Positions 7,862 to 21,001 of a DNA stretch of 64,000 nucleotides are shown here, piece after piece. This stretch comes from a virus. How positions within the stretch are numbered: the first letter of the stretch is position 1; each line of letters opens with the position of its first letter. The notes beneath the pieces were generated by a model, which had not been told where the DNA came from, ran no database searches, and saw only the letters and a list, made by a program, of their open reading frames with translations. The translations under genes were made by a program, and so were the position numbers. The stretch spans positions 6,965 to 70,964 of IMG/VR virus record IMGVR_UViG_3300045988_183931; one strand, 5' to 3'.

Positions 7862-7891
7862 AAGAGGCAGGCGAAAGCCGCCTCTTTTTTC
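7862..7891 (+). terminator. intrinsic terminator
   Basis: Hairpin GAGGCAGGCGAAAGCCGCCTC followed by TTTTTT. Confidence 0.7.
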
Positions 7892-7895
7892 TCTG

Positions 7896-8034
7896 CCATT
7901 GTTGACATTATAAATAATTGTGGTAGTATAATAGTATAATTACGAAGATATTTTTATAAGGAGACTTATCTCCGCTTCCAGTCACACCAAGTATTCAAGA
8001 CAGTTATCCCAAGACAGGGATAGCTGTCTTTTTA
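7896..8034 (+). promoter_or_regulatory. conserved promoter-leader-attenuator module 1 (of 4)
   Basis: TTGACA (7902-7907), 16-nt spacer, TGgTAGTAT extended -10, then a second TATAAT (7935-7940). Small hairpin GGAGA-CTTA-TCTCC (7960-7973). Stem-loop AGACAGTTATCCC..GGGATAGCTGTCT + TTTTT (7998-8033). About 90% identical to the modules at 10.9, 14.9 and 20.9 kb. Confidence 0.6.
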
Positions 8035-8078
8035 TATATTTTTTTACATTACAACACAATAAGAAAGGAGAAAACATA

Positions 8079-8345
8079 ATGGCACAGGCAAAAATGGTTT
8101 TCAGCTATCTCGGACCCGTTCGTGTCTATGACGACATTACCACAAATAAGTGGGGCGGGACGACTATGGCGGTTTCTGAGAAACAGGCTCGCAACAACTT
8201 GGCTCACCAGTATCGAAAACAGCGCGGATTGCTCCAGTGTGTGCCTGTCAAAATGACGGGTGAGCTGACCAGCTACACCGCACCGATAATGCCGCCGTTC
8301 AGGTCCAAGCGGAGACCTTCATATCGCGGAGGTGAAGCGCAATGA
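8079..8345 (+). CDS. hypothetical protein (88 aa)
   Basis: RBS GAAAGGAG, ATG at 8079. First gene of cassette 1. Confidence 0.55.
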   Translation: MAQAKMVFSYLGPVRVYDDITTNKWGGTTMAVSEKQARNNLAHQYRKQRGLLQCVPVKMTGELTSYTAPIMPPFRSKRRPSYRGGEAQ

Positions 8346-8614
8346 TATGGAATGGAAAGTGGAACGGAGCAAATGCCATCGTAGTTCACACGCCGCAGAG
8401 CTTTCGGTCGTTCAAGCGAGCTATCCGTTCTCTTGGCGATGTGTGGGCTGACTGGAATCATGTGTATTTCAGTCAGTGCAGAGATTTGTACTCCGCAGCA
8501 TACCTTCCCTGCTATCCAGACAAGAGTCCCGAAGATAGCACAATCACCTATCACTGGCTCAAGGAAACTTGGTCCAAAGAAGGTCCTCGCGCCGTAGGCA
8601 TGAACATTCAATAA
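8342..8614 (+). CDS. hypothetical protein (90 aa)
   Basis: ATGA start/stop overlap with the upstream gene. Confidence 0.5.
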   Translation: MIWNGKWNGANAIVVHTPQSFRSFKRAIRSLGDVWADWNHVYFSQCRDLYSAAYLPCYPDKSPEDSTITYHWLKETWSKEGPRAVGMNIQ

Positions 8615-8630
8615 TCGAGGAGGAGAAGCT

Positions 8631-8834
8631 ATGTCTACACCGCTGTATGAGTTAATTGAGAGAGCCGAGCGTATGGATTCCGTCTACTCTGAGCGCTACG
8701 CATCTTTCTCTTCTGAACAGGATAGGCGTGCGAAGCAGTGTATTGCGGAGGCTCGCGAAGCTATCGAAGTGCAGCGAAGAAACTGCGAAAGACGACGCCA
8801 GCAGGCAGCCGTAACACTGTCTCGGAAACTTTGA
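8631..8834 (+). CDS. hypothetical small helical protein (67 aa)
   Basis: RBS GAGGAGGAG then ATG. Confidence 0.5.
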   Translation: MSTPLYELIERAERMDSVYSERYASFSSEQDRRAKQCIAEAREAIEVQRRNCERRRQQAAVTLSRKL

Positions 8835-8855
8835 AAAGAAAGGAGTAAATTCATT

Positions 8856-19064: not shown

Positions 19065-19081
19065 CGTTGAAAGGAGAAAAC

Positions 19082-20128
19082 ATGGATAATCTGATTTCGA
19101 ACAAGCGAAAGCTGCATTGCGACGAGAACGTATTGGTCCATATCGTGCGTTACTGCCGTGATACGGATGATGCAGATGGCGACGGCATTAGAGAGGTGGA
19201 AATGTATGTCCCCTTCAAGTATATCTGCAAGGGCGATGCCATTGATATTCCTGATAAGGACACCGACGATGCCTTCAGAACAACCGCCTATGCTGCGGAG
19301 GACGCTTCGTATAGCGAAGCTCGTGCGGGTGGTTGGTTTGTGCCGGTCGCCTGTACTGGGCAGAAAGAGTATGTTCTGAAGCCTGATGATTTCGCACCTT
19401 GGCTCGTGACCCTGAGTGTCGCTTTCACACACGGGTCGTCCTGCAAACTCTTTTTCGAGTGCGTGGAACGAAGCGAAGAGAAGCTGTGGGCAAACATTCA
19501 CAGAATCTTTGACGATGTGCCGACGCTGCGGCATGAGCTGGGTTTCGTTGCCCTCGTCCGACATATGGCACGGAAGTACCTCACACCTGATAGGACGGAG
19601 CCTCTTGGCTTCAGATTCCTTTCGGATGATGTTGTCTGGAGCAACTGTAAAGTGAAGGATATCCTTCCCGACCGGTTCTTCGCAGCAGCGGACATGGAGC
19701 TAACGTTTTACGCCTATGCGGAAGACGAGTATGCTGAGAGTCCCCTATTCTTCGCCAAGCTGCCGTATCTCGGTACGCATCACGGAACTCCCGCAGGCTG
19801 CGTGATTTGCGCCTCCATCCTGCGAAAGCTGGACGAGCTGTATGGCGACCTGCCGACAGAAACGTCCCGCTGGTCGCTTGAATACCAGCTCTGGGCCCGT
19901 ATGCTGCTGACGGAAGGCGCAGTCATGCTGAACCCGATGCATTTGGCACTCTATGAAGACGAGCATACCTTTAATTCGCTTGTCTTTTGCGATGATGCGC
20001 TGGAAGTCAGCGGTGATGCTATTGTATGGAAGAAGGCATCCGGCGCTCCCAGCAACAAGATTACTGAGGCATGGGAAAAAGAGACGGAAAAGTCTGGCTG
20101 CAATGACACATTTACTTGCGCCATTTAA
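19082..20128 (+). CDS. hypothetical protein (348 aa), paralog B of the tandem pair
   Basis: RBS GAAAGGAG, ATG 19082. Shares conserved blocks with 18027..19064. Confidence 0.55.
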   Translation: MDNLISNKRKLHCDENVLVHIVRYCRDTDDADGDGIREVEMYVPFKYICKGDAIDIPDKDTDDAFRTTAYAAEDASYSEARAGGWFVPVACTGQKEYVLKPDDFAPWLVTLSVAFTHGSSCKLFFECVERSEEKLWANIHRIFDDVPTLRHELGFVALVRHMARKYLTPDRTEPLGFRFLSDDVVWSNCKVKDILPDRFFAAADMELTFYAYAEDEYAESPLFFAKLPYLGTHHGTPAGCVICASILRKLDELYGDLPTETSRWSLEYQLWARMLLTEGAVMLNPMHLALYEDEHTFNSLVFCDDALEVSGDAIVWKKASGAPSNKITEAWEKETEKSGCNDTFTCAI

Positions 20129-20153
20129 GCCACGAAAGGAGGGACAAACGAAA

Positions 20154-20795
20154 ATGCTGGATACTTCCGACATTCGCCATTTTGTTATACCGAAGATAAG
20201 AGAGACCATTCTGTATATCAACCGCTATGAGAAAGCGGCTGAAGCCATTGCCGCAATCGTCGGGATGGGTGCGTCCTTACAGGTTCGTCCGAAGCTGTCT
20301 GACCTGCCGCAAGACGCGGCGGAACTGGTTCTGCGGAAGCGCGAACTGGCTGAGTTATACGGCTTCGTTGAACAGAACTACGCCCATCTCCTGATTTCCG
20401 GTATTCTGTTCCACAGCGACTGTGAGAGTAAGCAGAAATCCATCAAAGCGTACCACGAGTTGTACTTTGCGCTGTGCGAGTATATCGTCCATGTGTCACA
20501 TTGCACGGATATACTCTACAAGGCAAAAGGGCAGCATAATGACCCTTTGTGGATTTGGGATGATGATGGTACATTTACGACCGCTTGGACGGCTCAGTAC
20601 CATGATGATTTCGACAACACGCTCTCCGCAATGAGCCATCAGGAAGATGAACTGCTCCAGACCATTTCCAGAAGCGCCGCCGTACTGCGAGACGCCTTCG
20701 CAGCGTTTTCCTTGGATTATCGCAACGACGCTGATGGGTGCGGCCAAAGGGTTCTGAAGGAGTATCAGGAGCGCATGGTTAAAAGGGAATGCTAA
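20154..20795 (+). CDS. hypothetical protein (213 aa)
   Basis: RBS GAAAGGAGGG then ATG. Confidence 0.5.
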   Translation: MLDTSDIRHFVIPKIRETILYINRYEKAAEAIAAIVGMGASLQVRPKLSDLPQDAAELVLRKRELAELYGFVEQNYAHLLISGILFHSDCESKQKSIKAYHELYFALCEYIVHVSHCTDILYKAKGQHNDPLWIWDDDGTFTTAWTAQYHDDFDNTLSAMSHQEDELLQTISRSAAVLRDAFAAFSLDYRNDADGCGQRVLKEYQERMVKREC

Positions 20796-20821
20796 AAGCA
20801 AGATAAAAAAAACTAAATTTC

Positions 20822-20853
20822 AAAAGAAGCTCCTTCGGGAGCTTCTTTTTTTA
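20822..20853 (+). terminator. intrinsic terminator
   Basis: GAAGCTCCTTCGGGAGCTTC + TTTTTTT. Confidence 0.7.
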
Positions 20854-20859
20854 CGTTGC

Positions 20860-21001
20860 TGCTGTTGACAAAATAGCGAAACGTGGTAGTATAATAGTAT
20901 AATTACGAAGATATTTTTATAAGGAGTTTTATCTCCGTTTTTCAAGTCACATCATAAATTCAGACAATCACTTCCCTTTTCGGGCAGTGATTGTCTTTTT
21001 C
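20860..21001 (+). promoter_or_regulatory. conserved promoter-leader-attenuator module 4
   Basis: TTGACA 20865-20870, CGTGGTAGTATAAT, second TATAAT. GGAGTTTTATCTCC. AGACAATCACTTCCC-TTTT-CGGGCAGTGATTGTCT + TTTTT. The stem covaries relative to modules 1-3. Confidence 0.6.

What the first reader, a model, noticed from the sequence alone, without database searches (positions are those of the whole stretch)
7862..21001. Four near-identical terminator-promoter-leader-attenuator modules punctuating a phage-like gene block
At 7.9, 10.9, 14.9 and 20.9 kb, a ~150-bp unit is repeated with ~85-90% identity while the flanking genes are unrelated. Each unit has five parts:
- an upstream intrinsic terminator;
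- TTGACA plus a TRTG-extended -10 (TGTGGTAGTAT);
- a second TATAAT at about +1;
- a hairpin GGAGA-N4-TCTCC;
- a strong stem-loop followed by TTTTT about 60-95 nt after the start.
A promoter with a promoter-proximal -10-like element and an early intrinsic terminator is the architecture of lambdoid late promoters (pR'/qut/tR'), which need a processive antiterminator. Here it is used four times.
Basis: partly seen in the sequence, partly recalled or inferred. Interest (0 to 1): 0.75.

Follow-up and report, generated by a model that had tools for sequence, protein, structure and literature searches.

The report
Repeated promoter-leader-terminator cassettes heading gene blocks
The four repeats are real: they belong to a 13-copy family of "strong promoter, short conserved leader, strong terminator" cassettes that head successive gene blocks in a large plasmid- or phage-like element of human-gut Clostridia, which points to a still unidentified read-through (antitermination) switch that turns about 90 kb of accessory genes on together.

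Summary
**Observation: confirmed.**
- Four co-directional modules lie at 7.9, 10.9, 14.9 and 20.9 kb.
- Each has a consensus sigma-A promoter, an invariant leader of about 55 nt with a small hairpin, a 13-15 bp terminator with compensatory changes, then an SD and start codon.

**The window shows only part of the system.**
- Close relatives carry 13 such modules in two co-directional arrays.
- The element is 175-190 kb or more, common in gut metagenomes, and carries RepL, ParB, a serine recombinase and adhesins.
- Three distant Clostridia lineages keep the same architecture with different sequence. One has two tandem leader terminators. All share a start-proximal TAYGAAG-like motif.

**What it is not.**
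- There is no Rfam family, no leader peptide in the window's lineage and no alternative antiterminator fold.
- No Q-, N- or NusG-like gene was found in the roughly 135 kb examined.

**Best reading:** a trans-factor-dependent read-through regulon for early or establishment-type cassettes. The modules also act as recombination sites; a chimeric module marks a 4-kb cassette deletion.

The specific lambda Q analogy is not.

**Closest published concepts:** pLS20-family EGeRS sequences, LoaP leaders and T4 PeSLs.

**Novelty:** new variant of a known kind.

The parts
7857..7891 (+). Module 1: terminator ending the preceding (RecG) operon
   Evidence: GC-rich inverted repeat with a T-run
7902..7929 (+). 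Module 1: sigma-A-type promoter. -35 TTGACA at 7902-7907, 16-nt spacer ending TGTGG, -10 TAGTAT at 7924-7929. Predicted start near A7936.
   Evidence: Promoter scan scores 10 of 12 with a TG extension. Invariant in the alignment.
7935..7947 (+). Module 1: second TATAAT (7935-7940) and start-proximal motif TACGAAG (7941-7947)
   Evidence: Invariant in all 4 copies and in the 15 W-lineage paralogue representatives. A TAYGAAG-like motif sits at the same distance from the -10 in lineages X, Y and Z.
7960..7973 (+). Module 1: leader hairpin P1 (GGAGA-CTTA-TCTCC), followed by GCTTCC
   Evidence: Present in the minimum-free-energy and centroid folds
7997..8033 (+). Module 1: leader terminator T2 (14-bp stem) plus T5, then ATATAT
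   Evidence: Compensatory changes among paralogues.
8065..8081 (+). Module 1: SD AAGGAG and ATG of the first cassette gene (88 aa)
10903..10927 (+). Module 2: terminator of the preceding block
10945..10972 (+). Module 2: promoter (-35 at 10945-10950, -10 at 10967-10972). Predicted start near A10979.
10978..10990 (+). Module 2: second TATAAT (10978-10983) and TACGAAG (10984-10990)
11003..11016 (+). Module 2: leader hairpin P1 (GGAG / CTCC, 4 bp)
11041..11077 (+). Module 2: leader terminator T2 (15-bp stem, TTTT loop) plus T5
11098..11143 (+). Module 2: conserved pre-SD hairpin P3 (TTCCCATAAGACCTTAACACAGGCTGGGAG), SD and ATG. Shared with module 4 and with most array-A modules.
   Evidence: Family D7; centroid fold
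14887..14918 (+). Module 3: terminator of the preceding block (GAAGCTC-TTTCG-GGAGCTTC plus T7)
   Evidence: Read from the alignment
14931..14958 (+). Module 3: promoter
14964..14976 (+). Module 3: second TATAAT and TACGAAG
14989..15002 (+). Module 3: leader hairpin P1 (GGAGATTTATCTCC)
15027..15063 (+). Module 3: leader terminator T2 plus T5
20822..20852 (+). Module 4: terminator of the preceding block
20865..20892 (+). Module 4: promoter (the extension is CGTG, not TGTG)
20898..20910 (+). Module 4: second TATAAT and TACGAAG
20923..20936 (+). Module 4: leader hairpin P1 (4 bp)
20962..21000 (+). Module 4: leader terminator T2 with a different stem sequence (GACAATCACTTCCC...GGGCAGTGATTGTC) plus T5
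   Evidence: A fully compensated stem compared with modules 1-3.
21024..21071 (+). Module 4: pre-SD hairpin P3, SD and ATG of the 621-aa AAA-like gene
   Evidence: Family D7

Best explanation
**What it is.** The four units are copies of a self-contained regulatory cassette. The same cassette heads 13 successive gene blocks in two co-directional arrays of a large (at least 175-190 kb) plasmid- or phage-like element of human-gut Clostridia.

**Proposed mechanism.**
1. Host sigma-A RNA polymerase starts at a near-consensus promoter.
2. It transcribes a conserved start region (AUAAUUACGAAG...) and a small hairpin.
3. By default it stops at a strong intrinsic terminator about 95-100 nt from the start, releasing a short leader RNA.
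4. The genes behind each cassette are made only when polymerase reads through this terminator.
5. The most likely cause of read-through is a trans-acting factor, encoded by the element or the host and not yet identified. It would recognise the conserved start-proximal motif and/or hairpin and make the polymerase termination-resistant.
6. Because all cassettes share the same leader, the roughly 90 kb of early or establishment-type genes would behave as one regulon.

**Second role.** The repeated cassettes serve as homologous-recombination sites through which gene blocks are lost, gained or swapped.

**Shown.** The anatomy, the copy number, the position at block starts, the conservation of the architecture across lineages, stem covariation, the absence of an alternative RNA fold, and a recombinant module.

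**Inferred.** Efficient termination, the need for a factor, the identity of its binding site, and the timing of expression.
For: **Anatomy and significance.**
- The T2 hairpin is about -19 to -20 kcal/mol with a U5-AUAUAU tail.
- No promoter-like site was seen by eye between T2 and the ATG.

**Copy number and position.**
- There are 13 modules per element, all on one strand.
- Each lies 38-100 nt upstream of an SD-led start codon.

**Selection on RNA structure.**
- Six T2 base pairs show compensatory double changes among paralogues, for example GC:10 versus AU:7.
- Module 4 has a wholly different but fully paired stem.

**Conserved architecture in distant lineages, found through homologues of the 621-aa gene.**
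- Lineage X: 37% protein identity.
- Lineage Y: 36-38% identity, with two tandem leader terminators.
- Lineage Z: 25% identity, in cultured isolates.
- The 69%-identity relative L094 has a different P1 hairpin sequence.
- A shared TAYGAAG/TATCAAG motif lies 14-17 nt after the -10. A UUCAAG segment precedes T2.

**Enrichment.** The architecture occurs 1 time in 834 kb of background loci, against 4 in the window and 4-6 in each related lineage set. The motif plus terminator gives 1 chance hit in 80 loci.

**No self-contained switch.** Nascent-leader folds show no conserved structure that sequesters the T2 5' arm. There is no conserved leader ORF in the W lineage, where the motif has ACG instead of AUG.

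**Internal control.** The neighbouring RecG operon has a perfect promoter and no leader terminator.

**Precedents.**
- LoaP leaders contain a small hairpin plus a NusA-dependent terminator (PMC12691694).
- pLS20-family plasmids have repeated regulatory sequences heading several variable establishment operons (PMC8708921).

**Recombination.** The junction module of L099 is an m2/m3 chimera and the 4-kb m2 block is missing there.
Against: - **No candidate factor was found.** Pfam, PHROGs and NCBIfam scans of the window and of 102 pan-genome protein clusters found no NusG, Q, N, ANTAR or CAT-type protein. A weak phmmer test with a recalled RfaH sequence also found nothing. Only about 135 of at least 175-190 kb could be examined.
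- **There are no transcript data.** Termination efficiency is inferred from sequence alone.
- **End-of-block terminators argue against a processive mechanism.** If antitermination were processive, the terminators at the end of most blocks and the many internal promoters would be partly redundant.
- **P1 shows no compensatory change inside the W lineage.** The GGAG/CUCC stem is invariant. Its loop and sequence differ between lineages, so a sequence-specific protein site in P1 is uncertain.
- **A repressor model remains possible.** An XRE/RstR-like repressor gene sits inside one module-headed operon. This fits a purely repressor-based burst model in which the terminators only attenuate.
Confidence: 0.5

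Rival explanations
1. **Lambda-Q-like mechanism.** The TATAAT at about +1 would hold sigma-A and pause the polymerase at about +16. A DNA-binding Q-like protein would load there and make the polymerase terminator-resistant. This is a special case of the best explanation.
For: - The tandem TAGTATAA/TAGTATAAT places a perfect -10-like hexamer at -1 to +5 in all W copies.
- The second TATAAT is kept in the 85% relative, where the preceding TAG is lost.
- A TA-rich hexamer lies at the same place in lineages X and Y.
- A terminator follows within about 100 nt.
Against: - No Q-family hit appeared in any scan.
- No conserved gene lies upstream of the modules.
- In relatives the hexamer often lacks the critical final T (TATAAG, TATAGA, TAAAGG, TAAGTA). 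What is really conserved is the TA at the predicted start plus TAYGAAG.
- The promoter spacer, where lambda's Q-binding element lies, falls into two different sequence families among W paralogues.
- The modules head non-late genes and occur 13 times.
Confidence: 0.12
2. **Repressor-controlled burst promoters with attenuating or insulating terminators, similar to EGeRS2 of plasmid p576.**
- The promoters would fire strongly when the element enters a naive cell.
- They would then be shut off by an element-encoded repressor binding the direct repeat at -10/+1.
- The leader terminators would only dampen output and block read-through from upstream. No antiterminator would exist.
For: - In p576, four strong promoters flanked by dual direct-repeat operators head variable establishment operons. 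One of those operons encodes the repressor (PMC8708921).
- Here a direct repeat GTAGTATA-GTAGTATA overlaps the -10 and the start.
- An XRE/RstR-like gene lies in a module-headed operon.
- A LexA-DBD protein lies just upstream of array A.
- EGeRS1 of pLS20 was shown to block read-through from upstream.
- The genes are unidirectional and include a Q-rich putative SSB in W, an SSB Pfam hit in relatives, a methylase, nucleases and toxin-antitoxin genes.
Against: - Two or three strong terminators in series after the element's own promoter (lineage Y) would leave almost no expression without active read-through.
- Weakening the promoter would be a simpler way to dampen output. Yet a consensus promoter plus a strong terminator is kept in four lineages.
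- The direct repeat is degenerate in the 85% relative.
Confidence: 0.2
3. **The modules are small-RNA genes.** The roughly 100-nt terminated RNA, made from 13 strong promoters, would be the functional product, for example a decoy or regulator. Downstream genes would be expressed only by incidental read-through.
For: - Promoter, roughly 100-nt RNA, terminator is the anatomy of an sRNA gene.
- The 5' 55 nt are invariant across W paralogues while the terminator varies.
- tRNA genes were the only other hits of the promoter-plus-terminator scan in background loci.
Against: - Every copy sits immediately upstream of a gene block that has no other visible promoter.
- Across lineages the leader sequence is not conserved apart from an 8-nt motif. 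In lineage Y the RNA would be only about 55-60 nt, mostly terminator.
- There is no Rfam match.
Confidence: 0.08
4. **Self-contained RNA switch.** Read-through would be decided by alternative folding of the leader itself, as in a riboswitch, a leader-peptide attenuator or the zipper-type attenuator of pLS20.
For: - Zipper-type attenuators precede conjugation operons of many Gram-positive plasmids (PMC13401043).
- In lineages X and Y the motif contains AUG and opens mini-ORFs of 5-15 codons (read from the sequences).
- In some copies the GAAG of the start region can pair with the U-run after P1.
Against: - Folding nascent leaders up to the T2 loop gives no conserved structure that occupies the T2 5' arm. 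The nascent folds score only about -6 to -12 kcal/mol, mostly P1 itself, against about -17 to -24 kcal/mol for the terminator.
- The W lineage has ACG instead of AUG, and indels shift any reading frame.
- The leader is too short and too simple for a ligand pocket.
- There is no Rfam match.
Confidence: 0.05
5. **Selfish dispersed repeat (MITE-like) or assembly artefact with no regulatory role.**
For: The sequence is multi-copy and near-identical within one element. Assemblies of this element are fragmented (many 40-140 kb contigs).
Against: - There are only 13 copies, all on one strand. None lies in the 36 kb of the window that has opposite-strand or other genes.
- Each copy is at a block start with a fixed distance to the ATG.
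- There are no terminal inverted repeats or target duplications.
- The 29-mer has zero hits in 185,579 species genomes.
- The order and neighbours are the same in more than 15 independent contigs from several metagenomes.
Confidence: 0.02

Closest known systems
EGeRS1/EGeRS2, the 'establishment gene regulatory sequences' of pLS20-family conjugative plasmids of Bacillus (PMC8708921)
   Same: - Highly similar regulatory sequences are repeated 4-5 times in one region of a plasmid.
- Each lies immediately upstream of the RBS of a separate operon of variable, mostly unknown-function genes.
- Gene replacement is seen between related plasmids.
- EGeRS2 contains a strong sigma-A promoter with direct-repeat operators.
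- EGeRS1 blocks transcription coming from upstream.
   Different: - This module combines a strong promoter and a read-through block in one roughly 200-nt unit.
- EGeRS1 is 420-750 bp, GC-rich and has no constitutive promoter.
- EGeRS2 has no leader terminator. It uses TTATCCCnnTTATCCC operators and an RHH repressor.
- Here there are 13 copies over about 90 kb, in Clostridia.
- Conjugative transfer of this element is not shown.
LoaP-dependent leaders (dfn and mln operons of Bacillus velezensis; PMC12691694)
   Same: A sigma-A promoter, a small RNA hairpin in the 5' leader, and an intrinsic terminator in the leader that must be bypassed to express a long gene cluster containing further terminators.
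   Different: - LoaP leaders are long (417 nt), single-copy per operon, and have a UNCG-tetraloop hairpin.
- A NusG-paralogue gene lies next to the cluster.
- Here the leader is about 100 nt, the loops are A/U-rich (AUUUA, CUUUG) and there are 13 copies.
- No NusG paralogue was found in the sequence examined.
Lambda pR'-qut-tR' / Q, and the N-nut system
   Same: - A constitutive promoter is followed by an early terminator (6S-RNA-like short transcript).
- A -10-like hexamer lies at the start of the transcript (Q system).
- A small hairpin lies near the promoter (boxB-like, N system).
   Different: - No Q or N homologue was found and there is no boxA.
- There are many copies instead of one or two.
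- The genes controlled are not late genes.
- The host is Gram-positive.
PeSLs, promoter-early stem-loop cassettes of T4-type phages (PMC2839356, PMC4122927)
   Same: Composite terminator-plus-promoter motifs are repeated between small variable gene cassettes. They act as sites of homologous recombination that shuffle cassettes. The same behaviour is seen here in the m2/m3 chimera.
   Different: PeSLs are a stem-loop followed by an early promoter. They lack a conserved leader and have no terminator downstream of the promoter. They occur in phages of Gram-negative hosts.
Zipper-type attenuator and ConAn antitermination of the pLS20 conjugation operon (PMC13401043)
   Same: Leader-encoded terminator control of a large operon on a Gram-positive mobile element.
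   Different: It is a single 456-nt leader with an alternative antiterminator fold. No such alternative fold is predicted here.

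Membership tests
Lambdoid Q / qut / pR'-tR' late-promoter unit | Sigma-70-type promoter followed within about 200 nt by an intrinsic terminator | tested here: met
   By sequence only.
Lambdoid Q / qut / pR'-tR' late-promoter unit | A -10-like pause-inducing element in the initial transcribed region | tested here: inconclusive
   There is a perfect TATAAT at -1 to +5 in the W lineage. Relatives keep only a TA-rich hexamer, often without the final T. 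Pausing is not testable here.
Lambdoid Q / qut / pR'-tR' late-promoter unit | A Q-family antiterminator gene, normally directly upstream of the promoter | tested here: not met
   No Q family appeared in Pfam, PHROGs or NCBIfam scans. The upstream genes differ at each module. Part of the element was not examined.
Lambdoid Q / qut / pR'-tR' late-promoter unit | A single unit controlling the late (structural/lysis) operon | tested here: not met
   There are 13 units heading helicase, nuclease, toxin-antitoxin, AAA/VWA and unknown genes.
N / nut antitermination | boxA plus boxB hairpin in the leader, and an arginine-rich N protein | tested here: not met
   A small hairpin is present. No boxA-like conserved element is shared by the paralogues, and no N-like family was hit.
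LoaP (NusG-paralogue) leaders | Small leader RNA hairpin upstream of a leader intrinsic terminator | tested here: met
   P1 and T2.
LoaP (NusG-paralogue) leaders | UNCG-type tetraloop hairpin recognised by LoaP | tested here: not met
   The loops are AUUUA, CUUUGU, UUUUAU, ACUUA or AUUAU.
LoaP (NusG-paralogue) leaders | A NusG-paralogue gene associated with the cluster | tested here: not met
   No NusG or KOW family appeared among the listed hits. Bulk scans list only the top 25 families. A phmmer search with a recalled RfaH sequence found nothing (low sensitivity).
EGeRS-type establishment regulon (pLS20 family) | The same regulatory sequence repeated immediately upstream of the RBS of several clustered operons of variable genes | tested here: met
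   Cassette loss or replacement is shown.
EGeRS-type establishment regulon (pLS20 family) | Carried on a conjugative plasmid and expressed transiently after transfer | not testable with these tools
   - RepL, ParB, a topoisomerase and thioester adhesins are present.
- No relaxase or T4SS was seen. A weak TraA_Ti hit is explained by the RecD2 helicase domain.
- IMG/VR files the contigs as viral.
EGeRS-type establishment regulon (pLS20 family) | EGeRS2 operator TTATCCCnnTTATCCC with an RHH repressor; or the EGeRS1 420-750 bp GC-rich multi-hairpin region without a promoter | tested here: not met
   By inspection of the module sequences: there is no dual heptamer, the unit is about 200 nt and A/T-rich, and it has a consensus promoter.
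PeSL cassettes of T4-type phages | Stem-loop terminator directly followed by an early promoter, repeated between cassettes and used for recombination | tested here: met
   An upstream terminator plus promoter is present at all 4 window modules. A chimeric module marks a deletion. Some array-A modules lack the upstream terminator.
PeSL cassettes of T4-type phages | T4-type myovirus genome context | tested here: not met
   No T4-like genes were found, and the element has plasmid-type genes.
Any Rfam family | Score at or above the family's gathering threshold | tested here: not met
   Only tRNAs reach the threshold. All module hits are terminator-driven and far below threshold.
MITE / dispersed selfish repeat | Many copies, either orientation, unrelated to gene starts, with terminal inverted repeats | tested here: not met

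The most novel reading that the evidence does not exclude
The cassettes may define a new antitermination system of Clostridia mobile elements.

- An 8-nt start-proximal element (TAYGAAG, at about +7 to +14), together with the following hairpin, would load an unknown factor onto polymerases that began at the cassette's own promoter. Alternatively, it would keep sigma-A on those polymerases and so exclude NusA.
- The leader terminators would then act as one-way valves. They would stop all polymerases arriving from upstream and pass only 'licensed' ones.
- This would give 13 independently insulated yet co-regulated operons.
Probability: 0.2. Interest if true: 0.8.

Novelty: new variant of a known kind. 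Interest (0 to 1): 0.62.

Why it matters
**If the model holds.**
- About 90 kb of a very common human-gut mobile element would be governed by one leader-level switch. One of its proteins occurs in 398 collection blocks.
- The switch has no identifiable known antiterminator.
- It would therefore be a tractable entry point to a new read-through mechanism in Clostridia, where only three antitermination systems are known for Gram-positives.

**Experiments are feasible.** The same architecture is present in cultured isolates: Diplocloster hominis, Brotocaccenecus cirricatena and Hominicoprocola fusiformis.

**Independent of mechanism.**
- The cassette is a compact natural 'expression module' whose repetition visibly drives cassette shuffling.
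- This extends the EGeRS and PeSL concept of repeated regulatory cassettes to gut Clostridia elements.
- It offers a sequence signature for delimiting early, establishment or anti-defence islands there.

Tried and rejected
- **Rfam.** Searches at gathering and at permissive thresholds found nothing beyond tRNAs and terminator-driven noise.
- **Curated phage and plasmid collections.** Megablast and blastn of the region or of single modules against INPHARED phages and PLSDB plasmids gave no match.
- **Exact 29-mer in GTDB species genomes.** No match.
- **MT835792 (31% CobT relative).** It has no analogous module. Its only repeat is the 3' end of a gene.
- **L083.** A chance promoter with the same tandem -10 but no leader.
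- **Intermediate lineage.** I tried to recover full modules of the 69% lineage using its P1 hairpin sequence. There were no viral hits, and the single metagenome scan returned only chance matches in coding DNA.
- **Leader peptide.** Rejected for the W lineage: ACG replaces AUG, and indels shift the frame.
- **Alternative antiterminator fold.** Rejected.
- **Single-strand (Frpo-like) promoter.** Considered but rejected by eye. The promoter is not inside an inverted repeat. The only inverted repeats are P1, T2 and P3, all downstream of the start. A direct DNA fold of the promoter region was not run.
- **Shared regulator between lineages.** All-against-all BLASTP found only the AAA and VWA genes in common. 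Those were the search anchor.
- **Look-up of the 3397-aa ORF.** Not on record.
- **Known antiterminators.** Pfam, PHROGs and NCBIfam found none. A recalled RfaH sequence also found nothing (weak test, sequence from memory).

Full report
**1. Checking the observation**

The repeat is real.
- The repeat finder reports one four-copy family at 7883-8048, 10926-11091, 14912-15077 and 20846-21011.
- A 33-nt core occurs only at these four places with at most one mismatch. Shuffles expect 0.00.
- An nhmmer profile built later from 70 variants finds no further copy anywhere in the 64 kb.

- a terminator ending the preceding gene block;
- TTGACA, a 16-nt spacer and TAGTAT with a TG extension;
- a second TATAAT five bases further on;
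- a small hairpin GGAG(N)-loop-(N)CUCC;
- a 13-15 bp hairpin with T5-ATATAT.

As RNA, the four leaders fold into exactly these two hairpins, with z-scores of -5.3 to -6.3.

Minor corrections:
- Ungapped identity over the repeat unit is 63-90%. The invariant part is the roughly 90 nt from the -35 to CACATCA.
- Module 4 has CGTG rather than TGTG before the -10.
- The small hairpin has only four pairs in modules 2 and 4.
- Modules 2 and 4 also share a 41-nt hairpin-containing 5'UTR just before the SD (family D7).

**2. The window shows only part of a larger system**

An exact 29-mer from the leader has no hit in 185,579 species genomes. It hits 77 stretches of IMG/VR contigs, nearly all from one metagenome, with many copies per contig and always on one strand.

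I placed the modules on contig coordinates and classed them by their first downstream gene. This gives the same order in more than 15 contigs:
- Array A: nine modules over about 45 kb.
- A 21.5-kb gap, holding a leftward operon with a large serine recombinase and the RecG operon.
- Array B: the four modules of this window.

Every module lies 38-100 nt upstream of an SD-led start codon.

The element is common in human-gut assemblies. One of its proteins is listed in 398 collection blocks, on contigs up to 330 kb.

Gene content of the arrays:
- RecG, RecD2 and a YqaJ/RecE-like exonuclease;
- MazF, YafQ/RelB and YopX;
- an AAA/DUF3232/VWA trio and an HD protein;
- TnpB, XRE-type regulators and many unknowns.

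Elsewhere in the window:
- a flotillin and a non-specific nuclease;
- a topoisomerase;
- a thioester/TQ/SpaA adhesin and a 3397-aa ORF.

Just beyond the window lie two RepL-like genes, ParB and a pilin-like gene.

I saw no capsid, terminase, relaxase or T4SS gene in the roughly 135 kb examined. 'Phage-like' is therefore not established. The element looks like a large plasmid or phage-plasmid, although IMG/VR files it as viral.

**3. Is the structure selected?**

Among 15 W-lineage paralogue representatives plus two modules of an 85%-identity relative, six base pairs of the terminator stem show compensatory double changes. One example is GC in 10 sequences and AU in 7. Module 4 has a completely different but fully paired stem.

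The small hairpin is invariant inside this lineage, so it is uninformative there. In a 69%-identity relative it is replaced by a different hairpin (GGGGAUC-CAUA-GAUACCC) at the same place.

**4. Distant relatives keep the architecture, not the sequence**

I used homologues of the 621-aa gene behind module 4 as anchors and found analogous repeated modules in three further lineages.

| Lineage | Loci | Identity to the 621-aa protein | Source | Leader layout |
|---|---|---|---|---|
| X | L095, L096 | 37% | AT-rich element | TTGACT, 16 nt, TATAAT; a leader hairpin whose stem covaries between copies; a 13-17 bp terminator; a third small hairpin; SD |
| Y | L116-L118 | 36-38% | rabbit-gut Clostridia MAGs | two strong terminators in tandem, three in one copy; the second is recognisably homologous to the terminator here (AAGACAG...CTGTCTTTTTATATAT) |
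| Z | L141-L146 | 25% | cultured Diplocloster hominis, Brotocaccenecus cirricatena, Hominicoprocola fusiformis | promoter, covarying hairpin, UAUUCAAG, terminator |

Features shared across lineages:
- a consensus promoter;
- TA at the predicted start;
- a start-proximal motif TAYGAAG (TATCAAG in Z) 14-17 nt after the -10;
- a hairpin followed by a U-run;
- UUCAAG at the 5' foot of the main terminator.

In all these loci the genes are unidirectional.

The architecture is rare elsewhere:
- Promoter, terminator within 170 nt and SD occurs once in 834 kb of unrelated Firmicutes loci. It occurs four times in this window.
- The motif plus terminator gives one chance hit in 80 loci outside lineages Y and Z.

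**5. What it is not**

- No Rfam family reaches threshold.
- There is no match in curated phage or plasmid collections.
- It is not a MITE (see the rival explanations).
- It is not a leader-peptide attenuator in this lineage: the motif has ACG where X and Y have AUG, and indels break any frame.
- It is not a self-contained switch. Folding the nascent leader up to the terminator loop gives no conserved structure that captures the terminator's 5' arm. What forms is mostly P1, at about -6 to -12 kcal/mol, against about -17 to -24 kcal/mol for the terminator.
- The neighbouring RecG operon serves as an internal control. It has a perfect TTGACA-18-TATAAT promoter and no leader terminator.

**6. Most likely mechanism**

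Each block has no other visible promoter, and the only way into it passes one to three strong terminators placed within about 60-150 nt of a consensus promoter. The genes can therefore be expressed only by read-through. This step is inferred from sequence.

No alternative fold exists, and the one element conserved across all lineages is an 8-nt start-proximal motif next to a hairpin. The simplest model is a trans-acting factor that recognises this region, as RNA or as non-template DNA, and renders polymerase termination-resistant.

The tandem terminators of lineage Y favour modification of the polymerase over masking of a single hairpin.

This is the logic of three known systems:
- lambda Q and N;
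- RfaH/ops;
- LoaP, the closest for Gram-positives. Its leaders contain a small hairpin and a NusA-dependent terminator (PMC12691694).

I could not find the factor.
- No NusG, Q, N or other known antiterminator family appeared in any scan.
- A low-sensitivity search with an RfaH sequence recalled from memory also found nothing.
- No regulator is shared between the limited loci of the four lineages.
- Part of the element remains unseen.

**7. Rivals**

Its defining features (a Q gene upstream, a single late unit) are not met. The '-10-like' hexamer is only loosely conserved outside this lineage.
- A repressor-only model is the main alternative. It is modelled on EGeRS2 of plasmid p576: strong promoters with direct-repeat operators and a repressor encoded in one of the operons (PMC8708921).
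  - For it: a direct repeat GTAGTATA-GTAGTATA overlaps the -10 and the start; an XRE/RstR-like gene lies in one module-headed operon; a LexA-DBD protein lies upstream of array A.
  - Against it: the model does not explain why strong terminators are kept behind the element's own promoters. The two layers could co-exist.
- The small-RNA-gene, RNA-switch and selfish-repeat readings are less likely, for the reasons given in the rival explanations.

**8. A second, directly shown property**

One assembly (L099) lacks the whole 4-kb block behind module 2. Its junction module is module-2-like up to the terminator's 5' arm and module-3-like from the terminator loop onward. The same chimera was present among the IMG/VR variants.

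At the module-3 position some genomes carry a different first gene.

The modules are thus substrates for homologous recombination that deletes and swaps cassettes. PeSL cassettes of T4-type phages behave the same way (PMC2839356, PMC4122927), and gene replacement was noted in EGeRS regulons.

**9. Comparison and novelty**

- The concept of one regulatory sequence repeated in front of many variable operons of a mobile element is published, as EGeRS and PeSL.
- Leader terminators bypassed by dedicated factors are well known (Q, N, LoaP, ConAn).
- The new element is the combination: a compact roughly 200-nt cassette with a consensus promoter, a conserved start motif, a hairpin and one to three terminators. 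It is used 13 times per element, kept across at least four divergent Clostridia lineages, and has no recognisable cognate factor.
- I rate it a new variant of a known kind, of moderately high interest.
- The mechanism is an inference. The decisive tests are transcript-end mapping and in vitro termination assays, which are feasible in the cultured carriers of lineage Z.

Noticed in passing
L099:17215-17470 compared with window 10872-11150 and 14862-15112: One gut assembly lacks the entire 4-kb block behind module 2. Its junction module is an m2/m3 chimera, with the crossover between the P1 hairpin and the T2 loop. This is direct evidence of recombination between modules.
   Followed up: yes
window 3496-3648: The RecG operon (3649-7858) has a perfect TTGACA-18-TATAAT promoter and a roughly 120-nt leader without any terminator. 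The leader contains TATAAGAAG and TAAGCAAG, which resemble the TAYGAAG motif of the modules.
   Followed up: partly
window 18027-19064 and 19082-20128: Two tandem paralogous genes of 345 and 348 aa, with DNA repeats of 70-77% identity (families D3 and D4). No known domain. A separate family of 380-394-aa paralogues heads or fills several array-A blocks in relatives.
   Followed up: no
window 45276-50942 (-) and 52976-63169 (-): - A 1888-aa secreted protein with thioester (TED), five TQ ester-bond domains and seven SpaA domains.
- A 3397-aa ORF.
- In relatives, RepL-like genes, ParB and a tip-pilin-like gene lie just beyond the window.
- Together these are plasmid- or adhesion-type content in contigs that IMG/VR calls viral.
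   Followed up: partly
window 2455-2809 (-), 31140-31224 (-), 1007-1915 (-): Three clustered tRNA genes and one isolated tRNA gene. A TnpB (IS605 OrfB) gene that is shorter here (302 aa) than in relatives (352 aa).
   Followed up: no
window 9064-9642: A MazF/PemK-like toxin domain in a 192-aa protein inside the module-1 block, with no obvious antitoxin hit next to it. The conserved 5'UTR of many modules contains UACAU, the Bacillus MazF cleavage motif. This may be coincidence.
   Followed up: no
L024:12598-13020 (-) and L066:12005-12418 (-): - An XRE/RstR-like 141-aa regulator is encoded inside the MENKKYDA module operon of array A.
- A 138-aa LexA-DBD plus zinc-ribbon protein and an orphan N6/N4 DNA methylase lie just upstream of array A.
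- Both proteins are candidate regulators of the modules. Neither was tested.
   Followed up: partly
window 39647-41592 (-): The topoisomerase gene matches Pfam Topoisom_bac from profile position 19. A separate 65-aa ORF overlaps its start, which suggests a frameshift or an N-terminal truncation (missing Toprim).
   Followed up: no
L095:16441-16568: In the distant lineage X, a 64-nt unit containing an SD and a start codon is duplicated in tandem (94% identity).
   Followed up: no
L083:5859-5898: An unrelated viral contig has a promoter with the same tandem TAGTATA-T-TAGTATAAT arrangement but no conserved leader or terminator. The doubled -10 may therefore be a more general design of strong promoters.
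   Followed up: partly
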